Shown here: positions 731-13,938 of the stretch, piece after piece | Numbering within the stretch: the first letter of the stretch is position 1 | How the letters are laid out: every line of letters starts with the position of its first letter | Sequence record: NC_133255.1 | Direction: 5' to 3' (one strand) | DNA: 64,000 bases | From: Escherichia phage vB_EcoS-26175I | The notes under the pieces: generated by a model | The model's input: the letters and a program-made list of their open reading frames with translations, nothing else | Databases searched by the model: none | Told to the model about the DNA's origin: nothing | Program-made: the position numbers and the translations under genes

Positions 731-1147
731 TTATTCACCTGCGGCCTGTTTTACTTCCTCCGCTACGCCTAACAATTGCGCTACGGCTTCCAGCGTTTCA
801 AGTTTTGCACTTTCCAAACTTGCCAGATCATCGGCATCTTTAATAACGCCAGCATCAATGGCATGTTTAGCCATAACGCGCACATAGTGAGCTTTACGGA
901 TTGAGCTACCGCCGCCAACTTTGCGAGGCTTGTCGCTTTTCTGATACGCTTTCGCGCTGGTCAGTTTAGAACGTACAGACACTGGACTAGCAGCGCCAAC
1001 GGCGGCGGCAATTTCTTTCAGGCCGTCACTGTTAGCAAATTCAATTCCGCTTTTAGCGACCATTTCAGAATACATAGAAACAGCTTTTTCGGTGTTTTCT
1101 TCGTTCCAAGAGAATTTTGCGGTTTTTTCGGTTTTAACGTTAGACAT
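731..1147 (-). CDS. hypothetical pre-early-region protein, Ala/Lys-rich
   Basis: 138-aa ORF; position in the pre-early-like segment. Confidence 0.5.
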   Translation of the reverse strand: MSNVKTEKTAKFSWNEENTEKAVSMYSEMVAKSGIEFANSDGLKEIAAAVGAASPVSVRSKLTSAKAYQKSDKPRKVGGGSSIRKAHYVRVMAKHAIDAGVIKDADDLASLESAKLETLEAVAQLLGVAEEVKQAAGE

Positions 1148-1454
1148 AGTTTAATACTCCATTCAATTATTAATTAAGGGATTATGATTAACTAAATGTT
1201 AATCGCTATATATTCTAATTAGATAATTAATATTACCGCTTTCGCTTAGACAATTAATTATTTAATACAGCTAGAATATATAACGGAAACATTTTATTTT
1301 TATTTCCTATTTAATGCCTTTTAGCGGCGACATTGTATATATACGCTGTCGATCTGATCACTATTACCCCATTCGACGGGAATCGTTAACGCTAGATTAT
1401 TCGAATCATCGTTATAGCCTGATTAAGCGTGATATGTTTAGTTACTACCGCTTA

Positions 1455-1706
1455 TTATGCGATAGCTTGCCATTTATCTTCCTTTTGAATGACCTTTACA
1501 ACGTCGCCAGATTTAACGCGAACGTTATAAATTGGCTTGCCGTTGTTACTGCGTTCCGTTTCAGCGTATACCGCTTCGATTTTATCGAAAGGAACAAGCG
1601 CCGCACCTTTAATACGTTCGGCTTTTCCGGTTAATTCATCCGTTTTAGTAACAAAAGGAATGAATACAGATTGACCTACTTTCGGCGCGGTAATAACGTT
1701 TTGCAT
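1455..1706 (-). CDS. hypothetical protein
   Basis: 83-aa ORF with a globular-looking sequence. Confidence 0.4.
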   Translation of the reverse strand: MQNVITAPKVGQSVFIPFVTKTDELTGKAERIKGAALVPFDKIEAVYAETERSNNGKPIYNVRVKSGDVVKVIQKEDKWQAIA

Positions 1707-1870
1707 TTTTAATACTCCGGTTTATTGGGGATTATTCCACAATAGCGCCTCGATACTTTGAAACGCTATTAGATTATAATCCGCTAGGAGTTAGCCTAAA
1801 CATTACCGTTATCCAAATTGTTAAAGAGCAGTTACTACGGGGAACATCTTAAAACCTATCGGCTAGCGTG

Positions 1871-2089
1871 TCAAGCGTTTTTTAAACTTTTTTCGATTTG
1901 ATGGGAGTTATATAAATCAATCATTATATTACGCCACACCATTTCCAGACCTTGCTGCTTGCCTTTCTTGTATTGCTTGAATCGGTATTTTACCGATCGT
2001 TGCGCTACTGTCAACAAATTTTTTGTTCTGCTATCTAATGCACTAGCAGGTTTCGCACTAATCACTAAAGCGTTTTTTGATTTGATCAT
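1871..2089 (-). CDS. small basic hypothetical protein
   Basis: 72-aa ORF with weak RBS. Confidence 0.3.
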   Translation of the reverse strand: MIKSKNALVISAKPASALDSRTKNLLTVAQRSVKYRFKQYKKGKQQGLEMVWRNIMIDLYNSHQIEKSLKNA

Positions 2090-2159
2090 TATCGTCGATT
2101 CCTTATATTATATAAGTTTACCGCCGATAGGCTTTAAGATGTTCCCTAGTTTTTAAAGA

Positions 2160-3160
2160 GCGCGGCGGTAAACTTTCCCGCCGTGTAGTTCGTCATTGCC
2201 GCCCTACGTGATAAATAATAGGAGAATACCGAGAAGGGCGCAACCTTATTTTTGTAAAGAAACGTAAAGACAAACGCCACTGCACCACGTCCAGCGGCGC
2301 ACTAAATTTAATGAAACGGGCGCGCGAATAACACCAAAACAACCATTTTAGCAAGTAATTTTCTCATTTATATTTGCTTTGCCCTACTTGACAAAATCTA
2401 AAATCCTCGTGGTGAGGTTTTCTCGGTGTACCCCTTATGATTGCCTATCTTTTCCTTTGAGGCGCTTAGAATGCGTTACAGAGCGTTTTAGACCCTGTTA
2501 ATAACTTATACAAAAAGCAAAAATGAAATTTAATGAGTTATCCACTTGATTTTTCAAAAAAGTATTTTCTGCTATTATTTTTCATTGACAAATAAGTTTA
2601 GACGTGCATTGATTGGTTAGCAGACTAACAATCGCTAGGATGATAATCACGCTGGTGGATTGTAACAGCTGAAACAGTTAGCAGACTATTAATACTCTAG
2701 AAACCTGTTAGCCAACTAACTATTTCATATTATATAATATACATATAAATTAATAAGAAATAATAACTATAAGAAACTATCAGCTAAGTGAGAACCACTA
2801 TCATTTAGGTTATTCACAAAGTTATCCACAGCACAAAATAACTTGACGCAATAGGCGACGTTTTGGCGACTTATCCACAGACTTATATACAGGTTATCCT
2901 ACTGTATAAATATACAGGGTAAATAGGTAGCAGTAACAACCGCAATCAAATTTAAGCGGCCTAGAACGCATTCTAAGCGATTTTCTCACTGCTACCCTTA
3001 TTATAATAAAGCCTTGTGTACGCTTACAGAGAGCTAGAAATAGAAAACGCGCGGTTATCATAAAAACAGGCAGTAGGCAAGGAATAAAAAACCTTTTCTT
3101 TTTTCTTGCCCCTAGCGAACAATTATCTATATCATTCACTCACCGATTAACGAGGGAGAC
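2160..3160. repeat. non-coding module A: DnaA-box-like sites (TTATCCACA near 2822-2830 and 2871-2879, TTATCCACT near 2538-2546), palindrome CTGTATAAATATACAG near 2901-2917, repeated GTTAGCAGACTA motifs, and a ~27-bp element TTAGAATGCGTTACAGAGCGTTTTAGA (about 2466-2492) with an inverted partial copy near 2966-2980
   Basis: Motifs read directly from the sequence; the same elements recur at 5800-5975. Confidence 0.6.
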
Positions 3161-3166
3161 AAAGAA

Positions 3167-4168
3167 ATGTCTACTGTAAGAATTGCAGTACCAGCAAACG
3201 CCACTATTATTAAGGGTAGTTTGCGCAACCTGCTAGACGGATCAAGTCCAGCAAGCCTACAACATACGGCGGCAATGGTTGAAAAGATTCACGATGATAT
3301 TTTAGATAATAATGATACTCATTATTGTTTAAGTGATTTCACACAACTACTAGACCCTACCCGCGTTCTAGTGCTTTACAACCGTGACTATCACATCATG
3401 CGAAATCAGCGGGGAAGCGATATTGATTTTATCATTGTAGGTCACGACGAAAAAAGCTATATTGCCCGTGGTTACAATGTACAAGAAAAGGAAATGGTTT
3501 TCGCTACTCGCGTAAATGGTATTAATTCCAGCGATGTAGAAGATTTACTATCTAGTATTTGGGGCGAATTGACAAGCGCCATTAAACGTGCTGATAGTGA
3601 CGCAATCGAAACAACTGGCGTATTGTGTTTTGAACGCGCTAGCGGTAACATGTTGATCCCTAACGATTATTTAGAGTATGGGAATGAATCAAACGTTGCA
3701 AACGCTGGATTTACACTTTTACCGCTTGACAATGTAACAAAACAGGCTGTAAGATCTAACACTCAAACTTCAAGCGCAAATGCGCAAACTACTGAAAATA
3801 AAGGAAATATTATGTCTAAAGTATCTTCTATCGTTGCTGCTAACAAATCTGCTGTTGTAAACGCTGCTAAACTGGAAGCGGGTAAAATTGCACTGACTCA
3901 AATCACAAAAGTAGCGGCGAAAAAAGCACCGTTTATGATTAAAGGGTATATTGATACGCCGATTGGTCGTGTAGTGATCGCTAACCTGCTGAGTGTAGCG
4001 GTTGACCAGTACGCCCCGACTAATGCGAAAGCGAAAGCGGTAGCAGGCGCGGCAATGGAAGCAGCAATGCTGGAAATGGTGCAGAGTTTCAATATTGCTG
4101 AAATGATCGATGAAATGGTAAAAGGCATTGACATTTCTACTTTTACCACTAACACCGAAAGCGAGTAA
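3167..4168 (+). CDS. hypothetical protein with Ala-rich C-terminal half
   Basis: 333-aa ORF with GAGGGAG RBS; followed by a hairpin plus T-run. Confidence 0.6.
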   Translation: MSTVRIAVPANATIIKGSLRNLLDGSSPASLQHTAAMVEKIHDDILDNNDTHYCLSDFTQLLDPTRVLVLYNRDYHIMRNQRGSDIDFIIVGHDEKSYIARGYNVQEKEMVFATRVNGINSSDVEDLLSSIWGELTSAIKRADSDAIETTGVLCFERASGNMLIPNDYLEYGNESNVANAGFTLLPLDNVTKQAVRSNTQTSSANAQTTENKGNIMSKVSSIVAANKSAVVNAAKLEAGKIALTQITKVAAKKAPFMIKGYIDTPIGRVVIANLLSVAVDQYAPTNAKAKAVAGAAMEAAMLEMVQSFNIAEMIDEMVKGIDISTFTTNTESE

Positions 4169-4195
4169 TAAATAGTCTAATGTAAAGTTTTGTAA

Positions 4196-4224
4196 AGGTC
4201 GCCCTAATCGGCGGCCTTTTTTGT
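4196..4224 (+). terminator. rho-independent terminator
   Basis: GC hairpin (GGTCGCC...GGCGGCC) followed by TTTTTT, just after the 4168 stop. Confidence 0.5.
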
Positions 4225-4287
4225 TATAATGCCTTTACACCGAAACGGTGGACTGAAAATTTTCCCTAATTTCTAGGAGGCGTTAAA

Positions 4288-4437
4288 ATGGTTATTTTTC
4301 GATCTATTCTGGCTAGTATCTTGGGCGCTATTTTATCCTTGTTTGTAATAGCTTTCGGCGTTCACGTGGTTATTATTGGAGCAGGTATCGCGGGGTTTTC
4401 TTACTTGTTAGGCTGTATGACTGGTAAAGGGGAATAA
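4288..4437 (+). CDS. 49-aa hydrophobic membrane peptide (MVIFRSILASILGAILSLFVIAFGVHVVIIGAGIAGFSYLLGCMTGKGE)
   Basis: Strong RBS TAGGAGG 8 nt upstream; frame checked codon by codon; below the ORF-track size cutoff. Confidence 0.5.
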   Translation: MVIFRSILASILGAILSLFVIAFGVHVVIIGAGIAGFSYLLGCMTGKGE

Positions 4438-4439
4438 AA

Positions 4440-4652
4440 ATGTTAAAGAATGTTTCCCTTGCCCGTTCCAAAGGTTTTAAGCTGGTGGATGTTAACACGT
4501 TCGAGCGTCCAGATTGTAAAATCGAATATGTAGCACGCAACAAAAACGCTTTCCGTGTTACAGAAAAGAAATTTGACAAGCGCGGCAATTTGGTAGCCGA
4601 AACGGTCAAACACTTTGCCACCTTTTACGCTGCATTTCGTGGGGTATTATAA
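4440..4652 (+). CDS. hypothetical protein
   Basis: 70-aa ORF with AAGGGG RBS, tightly packed after the previous gene. Confidence 0.5.
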   Translation: MLKNVSLARSKGFKLVDVNTFERPDCKIEYVARNKNAFRVTEKKFDKRGNLVAETVKHFATFYAAFRGVL

Positions 4653-4758
4653 TGGAAAGGGCAATTGTTAAAATGTTAACTTTTGTTTGTGGCGTGTCTA
4701 GTGCTACTCTGTTGATCACGCTAGTGATTATGATTATCCGTGACGCGAGGATCTTTTA

Positions 4759-5103
4759 ATGGTAATTTATGAGGGCAATCGTTTTGTTACTAATTGCCGT
4801 CCGGCATTATTAGCAAACTATTTAAATCAGCTTTCACCAGTTTATAAAGGCGTAGTTAATATCTATGAGGGCAAAGCACATTATAAGATTAATGCCATTG
4901 TTGCCCGTGAACTAGCGTTTCAATTTTTAACTTTCGGGTCTTGTGACGTTCAGGTTATGGGGGAAGCGTTAATAGCAGAAAATGAAAATGAATTTATCGA
5001 CATTTTCCGCAAAGTATATACAGAGCGCCTGATTATGAAAGGCGCGTATATTCAATCAACCGCTGAAAGTATCGAAACAGCGTTTCGAAAGGTGGCGCAA
5101 TGA
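4759..5103 (+). CDS. hypothetical protein
   Basis: 114-aa ORF with GAGG RBS. Confidence 0.55.
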   Translation: MVIYEGNRFVTNCRPALLANYLNQLSPVYKGVVNIYEGKAHYKINAIVARELAFQFLTFGSCDVQVMGEALIAENENEFIDIFRKVYTERLIMKGAYIQSTAESIETAFRKVAQ

Positions 5104-5285
5104 CTAGAAATGAAGCTGTTAAAGCTATGTTAGAAGGTAAAAAAGTAACTCATCGTTATTTTTCCATGCATGAATATTTATTCATGAAATATGAAGTGAT
5201 CACCACGGAGGATGGTTATAAATTTAATCATGAATTTTATAGCCGTGAAATGTTTAATGATGGCTGGCAGCTTTATTATGAATAG
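5100..5285 (+). CDS. hypothetical protein
   Basis: 61-aa ORF with ATGA start/stop overlap to the upstream gene. Confidence 0.45.
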   Translation: MTRNEAVKAMLEGKKVTHRYFSMHEYLFMKYEVITTEDGYKFNHEFYSREMFNDGWQLYYE

Positions 5286-5522
5286 CTGGTGGCGTAAAAC
5301 GCAAAGTCACAAATCTAATAATACCGCTGGGAATGTTTCCCAGCGTTTACGATTTGGTAATGGCTTTACAATGATATTGATAATCATTCTCATTCTAGGA
5401 GCGATGGCGTTATGAGACTATATATTTTCGTGGGTAATATTAAGCCTGCTAATGATCCCAACGGTGGCGACAATATCCGCCGCTATTTTCAACAATACAT
5501 CTATTAATAACGGGGCGTTACT

Positions 5523-5717
5523 ATGAGTGATAAAATTGTTATTCGTAAAACTAGTGTTACCGTGGATACATTCTATGTAGAAGATACAAAAGAAAACCGC
5601 GCAATTTGTGAGAATCAAGAGTATGACAAACTTATATATGATGAGTATGGTTACTACACTAATCTAGTAGATTCCTACGGTGAAAGCGTAGAGTTCTCCC
5701 ATCAAATACCGGACTAA
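5523..5717 (+). CDS. hypothetical protein
   Basis: 64-aa ORF followed by a terminator hairpin. Confidence 0.45.
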   Translation: MSDKIVIRKTSVTVDTFYVEDTKENRAICENQEYDKLIYDEYGYYTNLVDSYGESVEFSHQIPD

Positions 5718-5723
5718 TAATAA

Positions 5724-5756
5724 CGGGGCGCAACTATCGGCCCCGCCTTTTCTGGC
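5724..5756 (+). terminator. rho-independent terminator
   Basis: CGGGG...CCCCG stem followed by CCTTTTCT. Confidence 0.5.
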
Positions 5757-5799
5757 CTTCCTCAAATTTTCCCTTATTAAAATACCCCCTCCAAAAATA

Positions 5800-5975
5800 A
5801 ACGCGTTAGAATGCGTTACAGAGCGTTTTAGAGCTATATTAGAGTTATTCACCACGCAGGAATACTGTATAAATATACAGTAGAATAACCTGTTGATAAG
5901 TCTGTTGATAACGCCTCAAAATCGCTAGGATTTTGTCAAGTCAAATCGTGCTGTTAATAAACCTGTGGATAACTT
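5800..5975. repeat. non-coding module B: second copy of the 27-bp element (about 5806-5832), palindrome TACTGTATAAATATACAGTA (about 5863-5882), tandem TGTTGATAA DnaA-box-like sites (about 5891-5910) and a reverse DnaA box TGTGGATAA (about 5965-5973)
   Basis: Direct comparison with 2160-3160. Confidence 0.6.
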
Positions 5976-5999
5976 AAATAACAGTGTTTCTCACTTCCC

Positions 6000-6900
6000 T
6001 TTCTAAATGCAAATCATTCTCATTATGCGACTCATTCGCATTCAACTCTGTAAATGATAACCATTCTCATTCCGCTTTCTAAACGCGAATCATTCTCATT
6101 CGCATTCAACTTCTCAAATGCGAATCAATCTCATTATCATTCGCATTTCGGCAGGCAGGGCATTTTCATTTTTGCCCTGCGCTTTTGTGCAAATCCGACA
6201 TTTGCCCCCACGGATTACGTGCCAGCGTGCATGTGCGAATCCGACAATTTTTGGTAGTGTGCAAATCCGATGGGAAATATTTTTTATATGTGCGAATCCG
6301 ACAATGAATTTTCCTAAAAACTCCAGCAATCAACAACTGCGATGCAATCCAGCTGGATTTACTAGAATATGTGCAGATCCGACAAGTGTTAAGGTGTGCG
6401 AATCCGACAAGATTTTTGTGACTTCGATGAGAGGGTGTGTGATTGTGTGAGTTTGGGGAGAAGTGCGAATCCGATGAGATTTTGGGAGGAACTACGGAAG
6501 GAGCAGCGGTGTTGGTGCTTCAGCACCGGTTTGCTGCGTTTTTGGGGATAATGTGGGATGTTTTGGCTAGAATTGAGATTAGGGGAGATAAAGCGAAATT
6601 TTATTAGCAAAATGGGGCAGAATAGCTTGACAAGTGAAAATTCCTGTGGCTCTAAAAACTCAGGCAAATATGGGCCTTCGGCCCGAAATAATGCTGCTAT
6701 TTTCAGTGTTCCTAAAAACTTTGGAGACTCCTATCAATGTGCAAATCCGACCATAAATTTCTAGAAACATAATGTGCAAATCCGATAGCAATTTCCAGAA
6801 ATGTGTTTTGGAAAAATGTCTTCTAGAAATAACCGCCCTCCCTATAACCGCCCTCTATAGGAAACCGCCCTAGGATATGTAACGTTGGAGAGAAACTGCC
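6000..6900. repeat. injection-stop-like repeat locus: tandem CATTCTCATT / CATTCGCATTCAAC units (about 6005-6160); about 9 dispersed copies of GTGC(G/A)AATCCGA(C/T) (about 6186-6790); three to four AACCGCCCT units (about 6830-6900)
   Basis: Repeat families read from the sequence; only short junk-like ORFs; irregular spacing, not CRISPR. Confidence 0.6.
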
Positions 6901-7323
6901 CTAGAATGCGTGAGTTTTCCTAGAAACTTAGGAGTCTACTAGAAAGTGTTGTGCCATCCTAGCAGATGAGCGGCAACCGGTGTATCATCTTGAACGTTAA
7001 TTTATCTATTCAACAGTATTAGTTTTTATATAAGTATAAGATCCCCCAGGGTTCTCATATAGAGCTTTGCCCCCCGTCAGAAGGTCTCGTGATGTTTCTA
7101 GTAATCTTTACTAAATTACCTGTTGACTTGTCCTGTCGCTCCGTAACCTACGCTACAAGTCAGTAATTTAAGATTCCTGAACCACCACACCTTCTGTGTG
7201 GCAACTCTAAATGGTTAATTTTATTAACTCATAGAGTTATGATAACATACATTTAGTTATCTGTCAACGAGAGTTTGTATTTGAGTCTCGGTACAGGTAT
7301 TGTGCACCGAGACATGCAGGATC

Positions 7324-8211
7324 TTACAGTAACTCTTGGTATGCTTTTTGATACGCCTCAGTGTTAGTAGGTGTATCTTTTGCAATAGCTATTAATTCAT
7401 CTGTGATCTGAATATTTGTATTATAACGTGTGTGGAACTCGTCAGGAATTTCTAAATATCTATTGATGAATGCTGCAGCAAGCGGTGAAGCTATACCCAT
7501 TTCTAGAACCCATCCAACTTGTTTCTCAAACTTCAGATAAGGAGATTCTGTTTGAGTAGTAGAAGTTTTGGTTTCCTTGACTTCTTTAGTTGGTAGAATT
7601 GGATTTTCATAACGTGCTTCTTCTGGAATAGCAGATCTACGTTCTTTATAAATATAAGTTTCTAGATCCGATGCTTTAGACCCTGAGTACACTGCAAAGA
7701 CACTTGCTTTACCTTGTGATGCTCTAATTGGAAGATAACAATTTGGATAGCTTCTTAAGGCATCATGGAACGGGCTTCCAGAATATTGATAACGATCTCC
7801 ATATAAATCATCAATATTCATTCGTTCATCTTCAAAGATGTGGAATGCACTAAATGAAGGTAGCGTAAAATATTCTGTCTCTAGCGCACGAATTAAGAAA
7901 CGATGTGCATATGCACTAATCTTAATAACTGTGTAAGGTTTTTCTCCTTCTTTAAGAGCGTTACCCTTAGATGTAACTTGATAACGTTTCCCAAAGAACT
8001 CTACTAAACGTTTCTCATTTAACGAGAGCGTAGAGTATAAACGTCCATTCAGTCCTAGCAAAGTATCAAACATAAATGCTAGCTTATCTTTTTCTTCTTG
8101 GGTTAGTTCAGGGAACGGTAGGATCTTAGCATTTGGAATATTATTTGTTTCCTTAGCTTTTCCTTTGCCAGCATTTTGTCTCAGTTTGTCTTTAAAATTA
8201 TATGTACTCAT
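7324..8211 (-). CDS. hypothetical early protein
   Basis: 295-aa ORF. Confidence 0.6.
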   Translation of the reverse strand: MSTYNFKDKLRQNAGKGKAKETNNIPNAKILPFPELTQEEKDKLAFMFDTLLGLNGRLYSTLSLNEKRLVEFFGKRYQVTSKGNALKEGEKPYTVIKISAYAHRFLIRALETEYFTLPSFSAFHIFEDERMNIDDLYGDRYQYSGSPFHDALRSYPNCYLPIRASQGKASVFAVYSGSKASDLETYIYKERRSAIPEEARYENPILPTKEVKETKTSTTQTESPYLKFEKQVGWVLEMGIASPLAAAFINRYLEIPDEFHTRYNTNIQITDELIAIAKDTPTNTEAYQKAYQELL

Positions 8212-8280
8212 TGTGTTTCCTTTTTAAGGTCAGATGACCTGCTTTTTATTTTAAAGCCTCCGTAGAGGCTTGTGTATTAG

Positions 8281-8529
8281 TTACTTTTTATTACGTGGTA
8301 TTACATCTACGCATACTAAACCTAACTGTTTGATAAGACCTGCTAGATAACAGTGATGCAAGATCGCTTCTTTTGGTATTTTACTTATTAACTCAATAAT
8401 AGTACGTAGATCTTGTTGATTAGCAAAGAAAACATGCCTGATTTCTTCTTTTAAGTAAATACCGAACGTATCAGTATTAACAAGTTTTATACTAAAATCT
8501 TCATGTTCATAGGAGAGTAGTATATCCAT
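8281..8529 (-). CDS. hypothetical protein
   Basis: 82-aa ORF abutting the next gene. Confidence 0.45.
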   Translation of the reverse strand: MDILLSYEHEDFSIKLVNTDTFGIYLKEEIRHVFFANQQDLRTIIELISKIPKEAILHHCYLAGLIKQLGLVCVDVIPRNKK

Positions 8530-9140
8530 TAACGACCTCTAGCCTTATCTGCATCAATAGCTTCGAATACTTTCGTTAACATTTCTTCAAGCTCACCTTC
8601 TTTGCTAGGATTGCTCAAACGAATAGTATATGAGTTCCTAGAAACTCCGGAGTCTTCCTGTGCTCCGCGATCTTTAGCAAAGCTCATCATTGTAACGCCA
8701 GCTTTATTCCACTCGTCTACGCTAGACGCTTCCCCAAACTTATATGATTGCGTATTACTCACCACGCCACCACAAGGAATATTGTGCATATCCGACATTA
8801 ATCTTTTATCGGAGTTATTCAGCATTGCGATTGGTCCCGACTGCCACGGATCTCTAATAGTCACTGGAGTACTAGGGCGATTCACCTCAGTCTTCACGAG
8901 TTTGTACCCCGCATCGATCAGTGCATTAATCAGATTATCAGCCGGGATGCGAGCTGTGCCAAAGATAGCACGAGCATTCATGAGTTTAGCCTGAAATTCC
9001 TTGCAACCTTGAAGATCAGTGTGCAAAAACGACAGTTGCATAGATTTAAACTGTACTGTAGCAGTCAGATCTTTAAAGCTGTAATCCCATGTGTCGAGTT
9101 CATGATCTGCTACTACTTTAATGGTTTGTTGTGTAAACAT
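8529..9140 (-). CDS. hypothetical protein
   Basis: 203-aa ORF. Confidence 0.6.
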   Translation of the reverse strand: MFTQQTIKVVADHELDTWDYSFKDLTATVQFKSMQLSFLHTDLQGCKEFQAKLMNARAIFGTARIPADNLINALIDAGYKLVKTEVNRPSTPVTIRDPWQSGPIAMLNNSDKRLMSDMHNIPCGGVVSNTQSYKFGEASSVDEWNKAGVTMMSFAKDRGAQEDSGVSRNSYTIRLSNPSKEGELEEMLTKVFEAIDADKARGR

Positions 9141-9325
9141 TATTTATTCTCCAGTTTATCTAACAGCTTACGAGCTGCGATATTATGTTGTTTAAGTTCA
9201 CGATTGAGAATCTGGTTCTCACTAATTAATTCTAGATTCTTGGTATTAAGACTACTACAGCAAACCACTAATCCTAGAACTGCCACTAGAGACGCTACTA
9301 ATATAACGAGAAATAATATTTCCAT
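9140..9325 (-). CDS. small membrane protein
   Basis: 61-aa ORF with N-terminal transmembrane segment. Confidence 0.45.
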   Translation of the reverse strand: MEILFLVILVASLVAVLGLVVCCSSLNTKNLELISENQILNRELKQHNIAARKLLDKLENK

Positions 9326-9558
9326 TATTTAATTCCCATGTATCTTTTTAGGTATTCGATGAAGTCTTCAGCTTTATGCTCTTGACTGCCCTGAGCCACG
9401 AATAACTTTAGAACCTCACGCTGTTGTTTAAGAACAGAGACTTCTCTCCGCAATTTCACAGTATCGTCAATGATCTGGTTAGCATAACGAGTCTTGCGCA
9501 CAGCGGTATTGATAGCGAAGACTAGTGCGATTAGTAAAATAATTAATACATATTCCAT
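9325..9558 (-). CDS. small membrane protein
   Basis: 77-aa ORF with N-terminal transmembrane segment. Confidence 0.45.
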   Translation of the reverse strand: MEYVLIILLIALVFAINTAVRKTRYANQIIDDTVKLRREVSVLKQQREVLKLFVAQGSQEHKAEDFIEYLKRYMGIK

Positions 9559-9845
9559 CAGTTACTCCAGATTAGCATCCAGCTCTTGTCGAACGTGGCT
9601 GCTCTGTTAATTAATTCGCCCATAGAAACGTTATTGTTGTCTATGGCTTCTTGTACAAACTCTTTACCGAAATCATCTACTAGGTATTCTGTACCATTTA
9701 TAATAATCTTGTAGAGAGTTGGGACTAAAGGATGTTGATGATTAAGAGGACTCTCGTTAACAATTATCTCATTCCTTCCCCACGTCGTCTTGAACAGTTT
9801 GTGGGAGAGTAGAGCTAATGGGTTTGACCAGACTACGTACTCCAT
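9558..9845 (-). CDS. hypothetical protein (start uncertain)
   Basis: 95-aa ORF overlapping the upstream gene by about 77 nt. Confidence 0.35.
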   Translation of the reverse strand: MEYVVWSNPLALLSHKLFKTTWGRNEIIVNESPLNHQHPLVPTLYKIIINGTEYLVDDFGKEFVQEAIDNNNVSMGELINRAATFDKSWMLIWSN

Positions 9846-10311
9846 CTTTCTTTAACTCCTGCTTTAACTTTTGATCTTTATTATACCAAATTATATGCTC
9901 ACCGTCAACTACAAATTTGTGGAAAGGTGCTGGTACGGTGTACACTCCATATTCTGTTAAGCGTGTCACAACTTTATGAGCGCATAATCGGCAACCATGT
10001 CCTTCTAAGTGAGACCGTGCAGTTTGCAAGAAGTAACCATCGTGATCTGGGCAATAGATCTCAACCTGCTGCTGCATAGTTCTATACTTAACTCTCTCAT
10101 ACCCAAAGAACTTACCATGTGCTTCTACAGCTCTCCTAATAAAAATAAGATTAAGTGCGTCTTGCTGGAAGTCTGGATGAAGTTGTTTAAGTTTAGTTCT
10201 ATTAATAGATCCATCTGATTTAGTGAATCTATTTATGGGGAATTGTAATGATTCCTCATAAAGTAATTCGTTTATTTTATCTCTCATAGTATACACGAAA
10301 GGCCAGAACAA
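9769..10311 (-). CDS. hypothetical protein with Cys/His cluster (HLEGHGCRLCAH)
   Basis: 180-aa ORF. Confidence 0.5.
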   Translation of the reverse strand: MFWPFVYTMRDKINELLYEESLQFPINRFTKSDGSINRTKLKQLHPDFQQDALNLIFIRRAVEAHGKFFGYERVKYRTMQQQVEIYCPDHDGYFLQTARSHLEGHGCRLCAHKVVTRLTEYGVYTVPAPFHKFVVDGEHIIWYNKDQKLKQELKKDGVRSLVKPISSTLPQTVQDDVGKE

Positions 10312-13347: not shown

Positions 13348-13938
13348 TCAAACATTAATATCTCCCCTTAATACTGCTGCCACATCTTCACCGATTTGGA
13401 GTACTTCACCAGTAGTGCAGTTAACCACTTTATCATAGCTTGTGAACTTGCCAGACACAATATCTTCTAGAGGAATAGGAGTCTTACTCATCTCAAAAGA
13501 GACGTTGATATAATGTGGGTCACGCACAGAATTGGTGTGCACATGTCCGTGAATATTTAGCTTACCACGAAGTTCTGCTTCGTGCAATGGACAGTGTGAC
13601 AGCCAAAACTTCTTGCCACCACCTGTTTGCTTACCTAGAGCCTGAATATCATCATAAACGTCTACAAGATCTTTAATACGCAGACCCTGACGTTCAGCAT
13701 CGTGGTTGCCCATGATTAACTGGTTAGGCACATTGTGGATAACCGACTTTAATTTAGCCAACCCTTCACGCCCCACGGCAATATCCCCTAGCAAGACGAG
13801 CTTAGTACGCTTGCCAATGTGCTTGGACAAAGTATCTAGGATATATTCATCATGTTCTTTCATGTTCTTAAACCACGGACGGAAGCGAAGAGTTCCAGGG
13901 TGGTCTAAGTGCAAATCCGACCAGAATTTAACTTTCAT
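13348..13938 (-). CDS. calcineurin-like metallophosphoesterase
   Basis: Motifs DLHLDH, LGDIAVG, GNHD in the 196-aa product. Confidence 0.65.
   Translation of the reverse strand: MKVKFWSDLHLDHPGTLRFRPWFKNMKEHDEYILDTLSKHIGKRTKLVLLGDIAVGREGLAKLKSVIHNVPNQLIMGNHDAERQGLRIKDLVDVYDDIQALGKQTGGGKKFWLSHCPLHEAELRGKLNIHGHVHTNSVRDPHYINVSFEMSKTPIPLEDIVSGKFTSYDKVVNCTTGEVLQIGEDVAAVLRGDINV

What the first reader, a model, noticed from the sequence alone, without database searches (positions are those of the whole stretch)
2160..5975. Two non-coding modules sharing DnaA boxes, a palindrome and a 27-bp element flank a plus-strand cassette
Regions 2160-3160 and 5800-5975 share a 27-bp element (TTAGAATGCGTTACAGAGCGTTTTAGA), the palindrome CTGTATA-AA-TATACAG, AATCGCTAGGA motifs and DnaA-box-like sites (TTATCCACA x2, TTATCCACT, TGTTGATAA x2, TGTGGATAA). 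They bracket the only plus-strand gene block of the left half (3167-5717). The arrangement suggests a cis-acting unit (replication, DNA-transfer pausing or host DnaA titration), not simple intergenic spacer.
Basis: seen in the sequence. Interest (0 to 1): 0.5.

Follow-up and report, generated by a model that had tools for sequence, protein, structure and literature searches.

The report
T5-type injection-stop inverted repeats
The two "modules" are the two arms of a well-known inverted repeat, carrying host DnaA-binding sites, in the first DNA segment that T5-like phages inject; it is published as the candidate signal that pauses DNA injection, so the finding is real but a rediscovery.

Summary
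The window is the left end of a T5-like phage (Epseptimavirus, 100% identical to Escherichia phage vB_EcoS-26175). The region is its pre-early, first-step-transfer segment.

The two modules are arms of a 132-nt inverted repeat (2786-2917 and 5865-5996). They correspond to T5's annotated IRC-spacer-IRD and IRD'-spacer-IRC'. Each arm holds two tandem pairs of DnaA-type boxes, 12 nt apart within a pair and 61 nt between pairs. Each also has the palindrome and, further in, the 27-bp "B" element. Box enrichment is strong (P about 4e-10).

Davison's 2020 preprint describes the same layout in 25 T5 relatives and proposes DnaA-mediated injection stop. That proposal has never been tested. The finding is therefore already known.

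My additions:
- The palindrome is a consensus-grade LexA (SOS) box, conserved next to the DnaA boxes even in Vibrio phages.
- The cassette between the arms is inverted in Sugarlandvirus and Myunavirus.
- Primer mapping shows that a viable T5 mutant published in 2026 lacks the A2-side arm, so that arm is dispensable.

A replication origin is unlikely. DnaA or LexA binding has not been shown.

The parts
2466..2492 (+). B element, outer copy.
   Evidence: Identical 27/27 to 5806-5832. Homologous position to T5 IR B at 5285-5310. The core TAGAATGCGT occurs exactly 4 times in the window, all in this region. The motif recurs in Vibrio phage D308.
2538..2546 (+). Isolated DnaA-like box TTATCCACT, one mismatch to consensus.
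   Evidence: The equivalent box is present in EPS7 at 5276.
2616..2723 (+). Three GTTAGCAGACTAAC-type repeats. The last overlaps a promoter-like TAGCCA-18-TATAAT at 2709-2738.
   Evidence: Family D6 and promoter scan. Conserved in T5 at 5935-6010. Not significant as a motif count on its own.
2786..2917 (+). A2-side arm, equal to T5 IRC-spacer-IRD. Outer block AAGTGAGAA...; box pair 2810/2822; spacer containing CTTGAC; box pair 2871/2883; degenerate third box at 2894; palindrome at 2902-2917.
   Evidence: Inverted repeat I1, 132 nt. Alignment A1, 83% identity. Box positions. T5 annotation of IR C and IR D.
2900..2919 (.). LexA (SOS) box-like 20-mer TACTGTATAAATATACAGGG. It contains T5 'palindrome D'.
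   Evidence: 22.0 bits on a LexA matrix, the second best site in the 64 kb. CTGT-N8-ACAG occurs only at 2902 and 5865.
2954..2979 (-). B element, inner inverted copy (T5 'inverted repeat B''). It lies 36 nt inside the arm.
   Evidence: Inverted pairs I5 and I10. TAGAATGCGT on the minus strand at 2966-2975. T5 IR B' at 6184-6209.
3106..3135 (+). Promoter-like site upstream of the first cassette gene: TTGCCC-18-TATCAT.
   Evidence: Homologous to the T5 promoter annotated upstream of T5.011. That promoter is described as experimentally characterised in 10.64898/2026.04.02.716235.
3167..5717 (+). Pre-early accessory gene cassette. 3167-4168 is the DUF7566/T5.011 homologue. 4440-4652 is the homologue of the Ung-dependent nicking endonuclease. 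Further ORFs at 4288-4437, 4759-5103, 5100-5285 and 5523-5717.
   Evidence: ORFs. Pfam and PHROGs hits. tblastn against T5 and EPS7.
5725..5744 (+). GC-rich hairpin GGGGCGCAACTATCGGCCCC followed by GCCTTTTCT, a probable terminator of the cassette.
   Evidence: Read directly from the sequence. Same position as T5 palindrome C / terminator at 9194-9213. The automatic scan did not call it because the loop exceeds 8 nt.
5806..5832 (+). B element, inner copy next to the SST-side arm.
   Evidence: (27/27 identical to 2466-2492).
5863..5882 (.). LexA (SOS) box-like 20-mer TACTGTATAAATATACAGTA, 19/20 to the consensus. It contains palindrome D.
   Evidence: 25.6 bits, higher than all 19 E. coli sites used to build the matrix and the best site in the window. 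Consensus taken from PMC3009722 Table 4.
5865..5996 (-). SST-side arm, equal to T5 IRD'-spacer-IRC'. Degenerate box at 5880; box pair 5891/5903; spacer with AATCGCTAGGA and GTCAAG; box pair 5952/5964; outer block ending in TTCTCACTT.
   Evidence: T5 IR D' and IR C' at 9332-9462. It lies inside the region RefSeq T5 annotates as iss.
5999..6145 (+). AATCATTCTCATT-type direct repeats and palindromes (T5 DR C / DRE, palindromes E-J), immediately outside the SST-side arm.
   Evidence: Families D1 and D3. T5 annotation. Fur-box-like architecture.
6174..6184 (+). GCCCTGCGCTT, homologue of the T5 major single-strand nick site at 7.9% of the genome.
   Evidence: Motif at window 6174 and at T5 9660. T5 nick annotated at 9661-9668.
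6186..6791 (+). TGTGCGAATCCGACA-type direct repeats (T5 DR D), at least 9 copies. They span the predicted right end of the terminal repeat at about 6652.
   Evidence: Families D2 and D4. The boundary motif CTGTGG.TCTAAAAACTCAGG is at window 6644 and at T5 10131, and the T5 terminal repeat ends at 10139.

Best explanation
What is shown:
- The region is the pre-early, first-step-transfer (FST) part of the terminal repeat of a T5-like phage.
- The two modules are the two arms of its conserved inverted repeat, T5's IRC-spacer-IRD and IRD'-spacer-IRC'.
- Each arm is a fixed array of operator-like sites: two head-to-tail pairs of DnaA boxes (12-nt phase within a pair, 61 nt between pairs), all pointing toward the cassette.
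- A degenerate third box overlaps a consensus-grade LexA box. A 'B' element lies about 35 nt further in.
- The right (SST-side) arm is followed by repeat arrays, the 7.9% nick site and the end of the terminal repeat.

What is inferred:
- These sites are bound by host proteins already present at infection. DnaA is the most likely, and LexA is possible.
- Binding would occur as the DNA emerges into the cell. [quoted passage not shown]
- The A2-side arm would be an accessory partner, for example a second anchoring point. It is not essential.

Because the arms are inverted copies, recombination between them inverted the intervening cassette at least once during evolution of the family.
For: Identity:
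- The window is 100% identical to vB_EcoS-26175 and about 91% to EPS7 positions 4523-10114.
- The A2 homologue is at 731-1147.
- T5 GenBank records annotate the same repeats and an iss feature.
- Davison 2020 describes eight DnaA boxes, in pairs 3 bp apart, in 25 relatives.

Non-randomness.

Selection on the motifs themselves:
- Column identity is 0.84-0.97 for the boxes and 0.91 for the LexA 20-mer, against 0.60-0.64 for the spacers.
- The same box geometry appears in Klebsiella, Pectobacterium and Serratia phages and in the Vibrio phage River4.
- 48 IMG/VR loci show DnaA clusters on both sides of the cassette.

A host factor rather than a phage factor:
- The exact 9-mer TTATCCACA persists in Vibrio phages whose A2 is only 41-43% identical.
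- In phage D308 the DnaA, LexA-like and B motifs co-occur in sequence that does not otherwise align.

Position: the SST-side arm ends about 180 nt before the nick-site homologue and about 650 nt before the terminal-repeat end. This matches T5, where the shear point at about 9618 lies just right of the arm at 9332-9462.

Accessory role of the A2-side arm:
- The T5 'DLDR' deletion primers map to 5360-5392 and 9082-9107. The deletion therefore removes IRC-spacer-IRD (6022-6152) but keeps 9332-9462, and the phage is viable with small plaques.
- Davison reports that Type 4 phages lack the A2-side arm.
Against: - No binding of DnaA or LexA to these sites has been shown in any paper I could find. PMC10644984 says experimental studies of their role are lacking.
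- It is not obvious how proteins that bind DNA already inside the cell would stop further entry. A membrane anchor has to be assumed.
- Half of the boxes deviate from TTWTNCACA (TTATCAACA, TTATTAACA, TTATATACA), and their affinity is unknown.
- The LexA-like box falls below 18 bits in Thalassavirus phages (L006, L054-L056), so it is not universal.
- Function of the SST-side arm has never been tested by mutation.
- The stop could instead depend on the adjacent repeat arrays, on the virion or on DNA structure.
Confidence: 0.5

Rival explanations
1. Transcription control or insulation. The arms would be DnaA/LexA-dependent operators or roadblocks. They would bound the right-hand pre-early operon, or drive weak inward promoters, tying cassette expression to host replication or SOS state. 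DNA entry would not be involved.
For: LexA boxes are normally transcriptional operators. The arms sit on both sides of one operon. Weak promoter-like hexamers overlap the inner boxes and the palindrome, for example TTATCA-16-TATATT at 5899-5872 on the minus strand. Several cassette genes are toxic to E. coli.
Against: The palindrome lies about 190 nt upstream of the promoter-like site that is homologous to the characterised T5 promoter, and does not overlap it. The arms keep the same position and polarity whether the cassette is forward or inverted, so they are not tied to the promoter end. The whole cassette plus the A2-side arm can be deleted in T5.
Confidence: 0.2
2. Phage-protein sites. 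The boxes, the palindrome or the B elements would be recognised by phage proteins, not host proteins. The candidates are the DNA-binding dimer A2 or the A1/A2 complex. The resemblance to host operators would be mimicry or coincidence.
For: A2 is a conserved DNA-binding dimer required for second-step transfer. B elements flank each arm and are conserved as far as Vibrio phages, with no host motif I could match. In Klebsiella phages the B element is a perfect palindrome, TTAGAATCGATTCTAA, which would suit a dimer.
Against: The stop occurs without phage protein synthesis, so the arrest step cannot need A2. The 9-mer and 20-mer match host consensus sequences at or above the level of real chromosomal sites. 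They stay constant while A2 diverges to about 42% identity. A2 has no Pfam or PDB relative that would suggest a specificity.
Confidence: 0.15
3. Recombination substrate. The inverted repeats would exist mainly to allow inversion or exchange of the accessory cassette.
For: In Sugarlandvirus (L003, L007, L046, L048), in My1 (L008, L050/51) and in L047, homologues of cassette genes lie in reverse order on the opposite strand, between unchanged arms. The asymmetric centre of the palindrome reads AA/AA in forward genomes and TT/TT in inverted ones. Cassette content varies widely.
Against: None of 471 close relatives carries the inverted junction, so inversion is rare and old. No recombinase is encoded in the segment. 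Homology-driven inversion needs no conserved DnaA or LexA motifs, no phasing and no 61-nt spacing.
Confidence: 0.08
4. A DnaA-dependent replication origin, or a DnaA sink like datA that disturbs host initiation.
For: Clustered, phased, same-orientation DnaA boxes resemble oriC arrays. An AT-rich tract at 2724-2785 adjoins the A2-side arm.
Against: According to Davison's summary, electron microscopy places T5 origins near the genome centre, and the replication genes are in the later-injected DNA. Host DNA is destroyed within minutes, so titration has little purpose. The SST-side arm has no AT-rich tract next to it. No homologous locus exists in E. coli genomes.
Confidence: 0.05

Closest known systems
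Phage T5 inverted repeats IRC-spacer-IRD and IRD'-spacer-IRC' with IR B/B' and palindrome D. They lie in the left terminal repeat and form part of the 'injection stop signal' region (GenBank AY587007 and NC_005859 annotation; Davison 2020, bioRxiv 10.1101/866236).
   Same: The position matches, between the A2 operon and the early genes. So do the length (131-132 nt), the box pairs 3 bp apart, the palindrome sequence, the flanking B elements and the downstream DR C/DRE, nick and DR D features. The order of all elements is the same.
   Different: This phage is an Epseptimavirus. It lacks the HNH (hegG) insertion that splits the left module in T5. It has all eight boxes, whereas T5 has seven. The two direct B copies are 27/27 identical here but diverged in T5.
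E. coli oriC arrays of DnaA sites: high-affinity R boxes that nucleate adjacent low-affinity sites in head-to-tail arrays. This description is from general knowledge of oriC.
   Same: Same 9-mer consensus, head-to-tail tandem boxes at about one helical turn (11-12 nt), and two oppositely oriented arrays.
   Different: The two arrays are 3 kb apart and flank genes. There is no evidence of an unwinding element or of initiation. T5 origins are reported elsewhere.
LexA operators (SOS boxes) of Enterobacterales, consensus TACTGTATATATATACAGTA (PMC3009722, Table 4).
   Same: Matches are 19/20 (5863-5882) and 17/20 (2900-2919). All 14 enterobacterial arms keep CTG-N10-CAG.
   Different: The site does not overlap a recognised promoter. 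It occurs as part of a DnaA-box array in a virulent phage. Binding is untested.
Invertible segments of phages Mu (G segment) and P1 (C segment), which are flanked by inverted repeats. This description is from general knowledge.
   Same: A gene block flanked by inverted repeats is found in both orientations in related genomes.
   Different: There is no invertase gene. No orientation polymorphism is seen among close relatives. The arms are much longer and are built of host-operator motifs.

Membership tests
T5-type FST inverted repeat / iss region | Located in the terminal repeat of a Demerecviridae genome, downstream of dmp-A1-A2 and upstream of the early genes. | tested here: met
   The A2 homologue is at 731-1147. 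The region is collinear with EPS7 and T5. The terminal-repeat end motif is at 6644.
T5-type FST inverted repeat / iss region | Two inverted copies of about 131 bp that flank the right-hand pre-early genes. | tested here: met
   132-nt arms at 2786-2917 and 5865-5996, 83% identical in alignment.
T5-type FST inverted repeat / iss region | Eight DnaA or DnaA-like boxes in four pairs separated by 3 bp, with fixed spacing between the pairs. | tested here: met
   Pairs at 2810/2822, 2871/2883, 5891/5903 and 5952/5964, with 61 nt between pairs. Same geometry in T5, EPS7, KpGranit, IME260, My1 and Kamaji.
T5-type FST inverted repeat / iss region | The SST-side arm is followed by the DR C/DRE repeats, the 7.9% nick site and the DR D repeats. 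| tested here: met
T5-type FST inverted repeat / iss region | Acts in cis to halt DNA transfer at about 8% of the genome. | not testable with these tools
   Two-step transfer has been verified only for T5 and BF23. No mutational test of the arms has been reported.
DnaA-dependent replication origin (oriC type) | Cluster of DnaA boxes. | tested here: met
DnaA-dependent replication origin (oriC type) | Adjacent AT-rich unwinding element, and initiation at the site. | tested here: inconclusive
   An AT-rich tract adjoins the A2-side arm only. Initiation cannot be tested here. The literature places T5 origins mid-genome.
LexA operator (SOS box) | Palindromic CTGT-N8-ACAG with an AT-rich core, close to TACTGTATATATATACAGTA. 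| tested here: met
   19/20 and 17/20 matches, 25.6 and 22.0 bits, the top two sites in the window. Consensus.
LexA operator (SOS box) | Overlaps the promoter it represses. | tested here: not met
   The nearest good promoter-like site is about 190 nt away. Only weak 9/12 hexamer matches overlap the box.
LexA operator (SOS box) | Bound by LexA and released on SOS induction. | not testable with these tools
   No data found.
Site-specific invertible segment (Gin/Hin type) | A recombinase gene in or next to the segment. | tested here: not met
   No recombinase domain in any ORF of the segment.
Site-specific invertible segment (Gin/Hin type) | Both orientations present among near-identical genomes. 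| tested here: not met
   0 of 471 records hold the inverted junction. The inversion is seen only between genera.

The most novel reading that the evidence does not exclude
The arms would be composite landing pads for two abundant host repressor-type proteins, DnaA and LexA. They might be joined by a Fur-like binder on the adjacent repeats. Arrest of T5-type DNA entry would then be caused by a host nucleoprotein plug. Its release would be partly timed by the SOS response, with LexA self-cleavage triggered by A1-driven host DNA degradation. A2 would act at the conserved B elements. The same arms would have served as the crossover sites for an ancient inversion of the accessory cassette.
Probability: 0.12. 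Interest if true: 0.75.

Novelty: already known. Interest (0 to 1): 0.3.

Why it matters
How T5 stops and restarts DNA injection has been unexplained for more than fifty years, and these arms are the leading cis-acting candidate. The finding itself adds nothing to what is annotated for T5 and described by Davison (2020).

This check gives three usable leads:
- The palindrome is a near-consensus LexA box, conserved beside the DnaA boxes. This gives a second host factor that can be tested with standard lexA and recA strains.
- The A2-side arm is already absent from a viable engineered T5. That mutant can be used directly to ask whether the stop point or its timing changes.
- The cassette has been inverted between the arms in some genera. 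The arms therefore work independently of the direction of cassette transcription.

Tried and rejected
- Rfam scan of 1100-7400: only a sub-threshold sRNA hit at 4185-4237, nothing in the modules.
- Search for a host origin of the arm in 5,426 E. coli genomes: no match.
- Synthetic inverted-junction query, to look for recent or polymorphic inversion: 0 of 471 records.
- AATCGCTAGGA as a shared motif: two exact copies, not above chance at 1 mismatch and not positionally equivalent. I do not treat it as a functional element.
- GTTAGCAGACTAAC repeats: real locally but not significant as a motif count. Left unexplained.
- A2 as a recognisable DNA-binding fold: no Pfam hit above noise and no PDB relative. 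I ran no further search on it.
- Fur boxes in the DR C/DRE repeats: the architecture is similar and 13-15 of 19 positions match, but every hexamer reads GAGAAT rather than GATAAT. I do not assign them to Fur.
- Replication origin: rejected as the main reading (see the rival explanations).
- Davison's 2015 paper (PMC4743489) is not held in the library, so I could not check whether it mentions the inversion or the LexA box. The 2020 preprint mentions neither.

Full report
**What the window is.** Megablast of 1800-6200 gives 100% identity to Escherichia phage vB_EcoS-26175 II, IV and V. It gives about 91% identity to phage EPS7 at positions 4523-10114, and 534 T5-like records match in all. In EPS7 the segment follows dmp, A1 and A2. 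The window ORF at 731-1147 (minus strand) is the A2 homologue, 96% identical to EPS7 and 87% to T5. The finding therefore lies in the left terminal repeat of a T5-like phage of the genus Epseptimavirus. This is the 'first-step-transfer' (FST) or pre-early segment, the roughly 8% of the genome that enters the cell first.

**Checking the observation.**
- The 27-nt element is identical at 2466-2492 and 5806-5832.
- The 18-nt TACTGTATAAATATACAG is identical at 2900-2917 and 5863-5880.
- The exact DnaA box TTATCCACA occurs 4 times in 64 kb against 0.58 expected (0 of 100 shuffles reach 4), and three of the four are in the modules.
- Allowing one mismatch, six boxes lie in the 264 nt of the two arms against 0.083 expected (P = 4e-10). 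The only four box pairs with 12-nt phasing in the whole window are in the arms.
- The palindrome occurs nowhere else in the window.
- AATCGCTAGGA is present twice, but that is not more than chance allows.
- The plus-strand claim holds.

Aligned, the arms are 83% identical.

**Anatomy.** Read toward the cassette, each arm has the following parts:
- an outer conserved block, AAGTGAGAA(A/C)CACT.TCATTTA;
- a pair of boxes 3 bp apart;
- a spacer containing CTTGAC;
- a second pair whose first box starts 61 nt after the first box of the first pair;
- a degenerate third box, TTATCCTAC or TTATTCTAC;
- overlapping that box, the 16-bp palindrome.

About 35 nt further in lies a copy of the 27-nt 'B' element, at 2954-2979 (inverted) and at 5806-5832. 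A third copy lies outside the left arm at 2466-2492. The core TAGAATGCGT occurs a fourth time at 6902. All boxes of the left arm are on the plus strand and all boxes of the right arm are on the minus strand, so both arrays point inward.

Inside the arms lie a promoter-like site (3106-3135), seven to nine small genes (3167-5717) and a hairpin terminator (5725-5744). Outside the right arm lie AATCATTCTCATT-type repeats (5999-6145). Beyond them come the homologue of the T5 7.9% nick site (6174), TGTGCGAATCCGACA repeats, and the predicted end of the terminal repeat at about 6652.

**This is a known structure.**
- GenBank AY587007 (T5) annotates inverted repeats A/A', B/B', C, D, D' and C', palindromes A-J, direct repeats A-D, the nick and the terminal repeat. 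The sequences are collinear with the window.
- RefSeq T5 annotates 'injection stop signal (iss)' over the region that contains the right arm.
- Davison's preprint (bioRxiv 10.1101/866236) compares 25 T5 relatives. It describes the 131-bp IRC-spacer-IRD and IRD'-spacer-IRC', the eight DnaA or DnaA-like boxes in pairs 3 bp apart, and the constant spacer.
- The preprint proposes that membrane-bound DnaA holds the incoming DNA at these boxes. It rejects a replication role, because T5 origins map near the genome centre.
- Two later papers state that this idea has not been tested (PMC10644984; PMC13250531).

**Conservation beyond the published set.** I fetched the region from T5, EPS7, Klebsiella phages KpGranit and IME260, Pectobacterium phage My1, Serratia phage Kamaji and Vibrio phages River4 and D308. 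I also fetched 48 IMG/VR loci found with an A2 alignment.
- The 12-nt and 60-63-nt box geometry recurs in all except D308.
- In a 16-arm alignment the boxes and the palindrome have column identities of 0.84-0.97, while the spacers have 0.60-0.64.
- River4 has six exact TTATCCACA, all in two clusters flanking its cassette. D308 has five.
- A2 in these Vibrio phages is only 41-43% identical. The unchanged 9-mer therefore fits a host factor better than a co-evolving phage protein. This is an inference.

**The palindrome is a LexA-type SOS box.** TACTGTATAAATATACAGTA at 5863-5882 differs at one position from the E. coli LexA consensus TACTGTATATATATACAGTA (consensus and eight example sites in PMC3009722).
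- I built a matrix from 19 E. coli boxes recalled from memory, several of which are confirmed by that table. On it the right copy scores 25.6 bits, above all 19 training sites.
- The left copy scores 22.0 bits. The next best site in the window scores 14.1.
- Almost every related locus has two such sites of at least 18 bits, each abutting the inner box pair. All 14 enterobacterial arms keep CTG-N10-CAG.
- In D308, LexA-like boxes (19-22 bits) sit beside exact DnaA boxes and B elements in sequence that does not otherwise align.
- Thalassavirus phages lack a site of at least 18 bits.
- Davison's preprint does not mention LexA or SOS, and a library search found no T5 paper that does.
- Binding is untested, and the site does not overlap a good promoter.

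**The cassette has been inverted between the arms.** In the window, T5, EPS7 and Kamaji the cassette is transcribed away from A2, and the DUF7566 gene (3167-4168) lies next to the A2-side arm.
- In KpGranit, IME260, My1 and locus L047, homologues of 3167-4168, 4759-5103 and 5523-5717 lie in reverse order on the other strand. The DUF7566 gene is then next to the SST-side arm. The blastp E-value for 3167-4168 against the KpGranit gene is 8e-40.
- The arms keep their polarity in these genomes.
- The asymmetric centre of the palindrome reads AA/AA in forward genomes and TT/TT in inverted ones, with the genome oriented dmp-left. This is what an inversion that carries the palindromes with it would produce, and it places the crossover in the box part of the arms.
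- Davison noted ORFs 'read in the opposite direction' but described them as a replacement.
- A synthetic inverted-junction query matched none of 471 close relatives over its full length. The event is therefore old and is not an active switch. No recombinase is encoded in the segment.
- It follows that the arms function whichever way the cassette is transcribed.

**The A2-side arm is dispensable in T5.** A 2026 preprint (10.64898/2026.04.02.716235) built T5 'DLDR', which lacks hegG to 017. The phage is viable with small plaques. The two inverse-PCR primers map to AY587007 positions 5360-5392 and 9082-9107. The single deletion of about 5393-9081 therefore removes IRC-spacer-IRD (6022-6152) and IR B', but keeps IRD'-spacer-IRC' (9332-9462). 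The authors do not discuss this. It agrees with Davison's remark that Type 4 phages lack the A2-side arm.

**Most likely mechanism.** The structure and its conservation are shown. The rest is inference.
- The arms would be arrays of high-affinity sites for host proteins that are already present when the DNA enters. DnaA is the most likely, and LexA is possible.
- The SST-side arm ends about 180 nt before the nick-site homologue, and in T5 it lies just left of the shear point. It would be the core of the stop signal.
- The A2-side arm would be an accessory.
- A1 and A2 would release the block, and the B elements are candidate A2 sites.

I put about 0.5 on this. Nothing has been shown to bind, and how a cytoplasmic complex would arrest entry is not obvious.

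Rivals, with my confidence in each:
- transcriptional control or insulation, 0.2;
- phage-protein binding sites, 0.15;
- a recombination substrate as the primary role, 0.08;
- a replication origin or DnaA sink, 0.05.

**Verdict.** It is already annotated and published for T5 and its relatives, so the novelty class is 'already known' and the interest is modest. What lifts it above a plain rediscovery is the set of leads for an old open question: the LexA-box identity of the palindrome, the ancient inversion, and the viable mutant that lacks one arm.

Noticed in passing
window 5999-6145; also 5373-5391, 3308-3326, 4720-4738: The AATCATTCTCATT-type repeats outside the SST-side arm have the layout of a Fur box (GAGAAT GAGAAT C ATTCTC) and match 13-15 of 19 positions of GATAATGATAATCATTATC. 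GATATTGATAATCATTCTC at 5373 matches 17 of 19, inside an ORF. Five of the six hits in the window with at least 15/19 lie in the first 6.1 kb, against 0.9 expected per 64 kb. Each hexamer has G where Fur boxes have T, so the binder is unclear.
   Followed up: partly
L005 (Vibrio phage D308, OZ196011) 5614-9576: The pre-early non-coding region has 8 sigma-54-type -24/-12 motifs (TGGCAC-N5-TTGC, at most 1 mismatch) against 0.94 expected; 0 of 200 shuffles reach 8. They are interleaved with the DnaA, LexA-like and B motifs. This suggests that the phage's pre-early promoters may be sigma-54 dependent.
   Followed up: partly
window 1840-1863 and 2123-2146: A 24-nt inverted repeat (96% complementary; T5 IR A/A') brackets the small ORF at 1871-2089, the homologue of T5.008/hdi, a host division inhibitor. 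The strongest promoter-like sites of the region (TTGACA-16-TAAAAT and TTGACA-17-TAAGAT, minus strand) lie within this bracketed stretch, one of them overlapping the IR A arm. They correspond to the T5 promoters P-H22 and P-D/E20.
   Followed up: partly
window 2616-2723: Three copies of a GTTAGCAGACTAAC-like partial palindrome, 61 and 30 nt apart, lie just left of the A2-side arm. They are conserved in T5 (5935-6010). Function unknown.
   Followed up: partly
window 6186-6791 and about 6652: At least nine TGTGCGAATCCGACA repeats (T5 DR D) straddle the predicted right end of the terminal repeat. They are candidates for terminase or end-definition sites.
   Followed up: no
L052 and L053 (IMG/VR metagenomic contigs; A2 43% identical): These distant relatives carry 13 DnaA-type boxes (at most 1 mismatch) within about 1.7 kb upstream of A2. 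The pairs have 11-nt phasing instead of 12-nt, and there is one LexA-like box of 21.7 bits.
   Followed up: no
L003 13895-13919 and L007 197-221 (Klebsiella phages, inside dmp about 200 nt from the left genome end); T5 L002 228-252: Very strong Fur-box-like sequences (17-18 of 19, for example GATATTGATAATCATTATC) lie near the extreme left end, the first DNA to enter the cell.
   Followed up: no
window 13734-13742: The only exact TTATCCACA outside the FST region lies in the early gene block, on the minus strand. Not examined.
   Followed up: no
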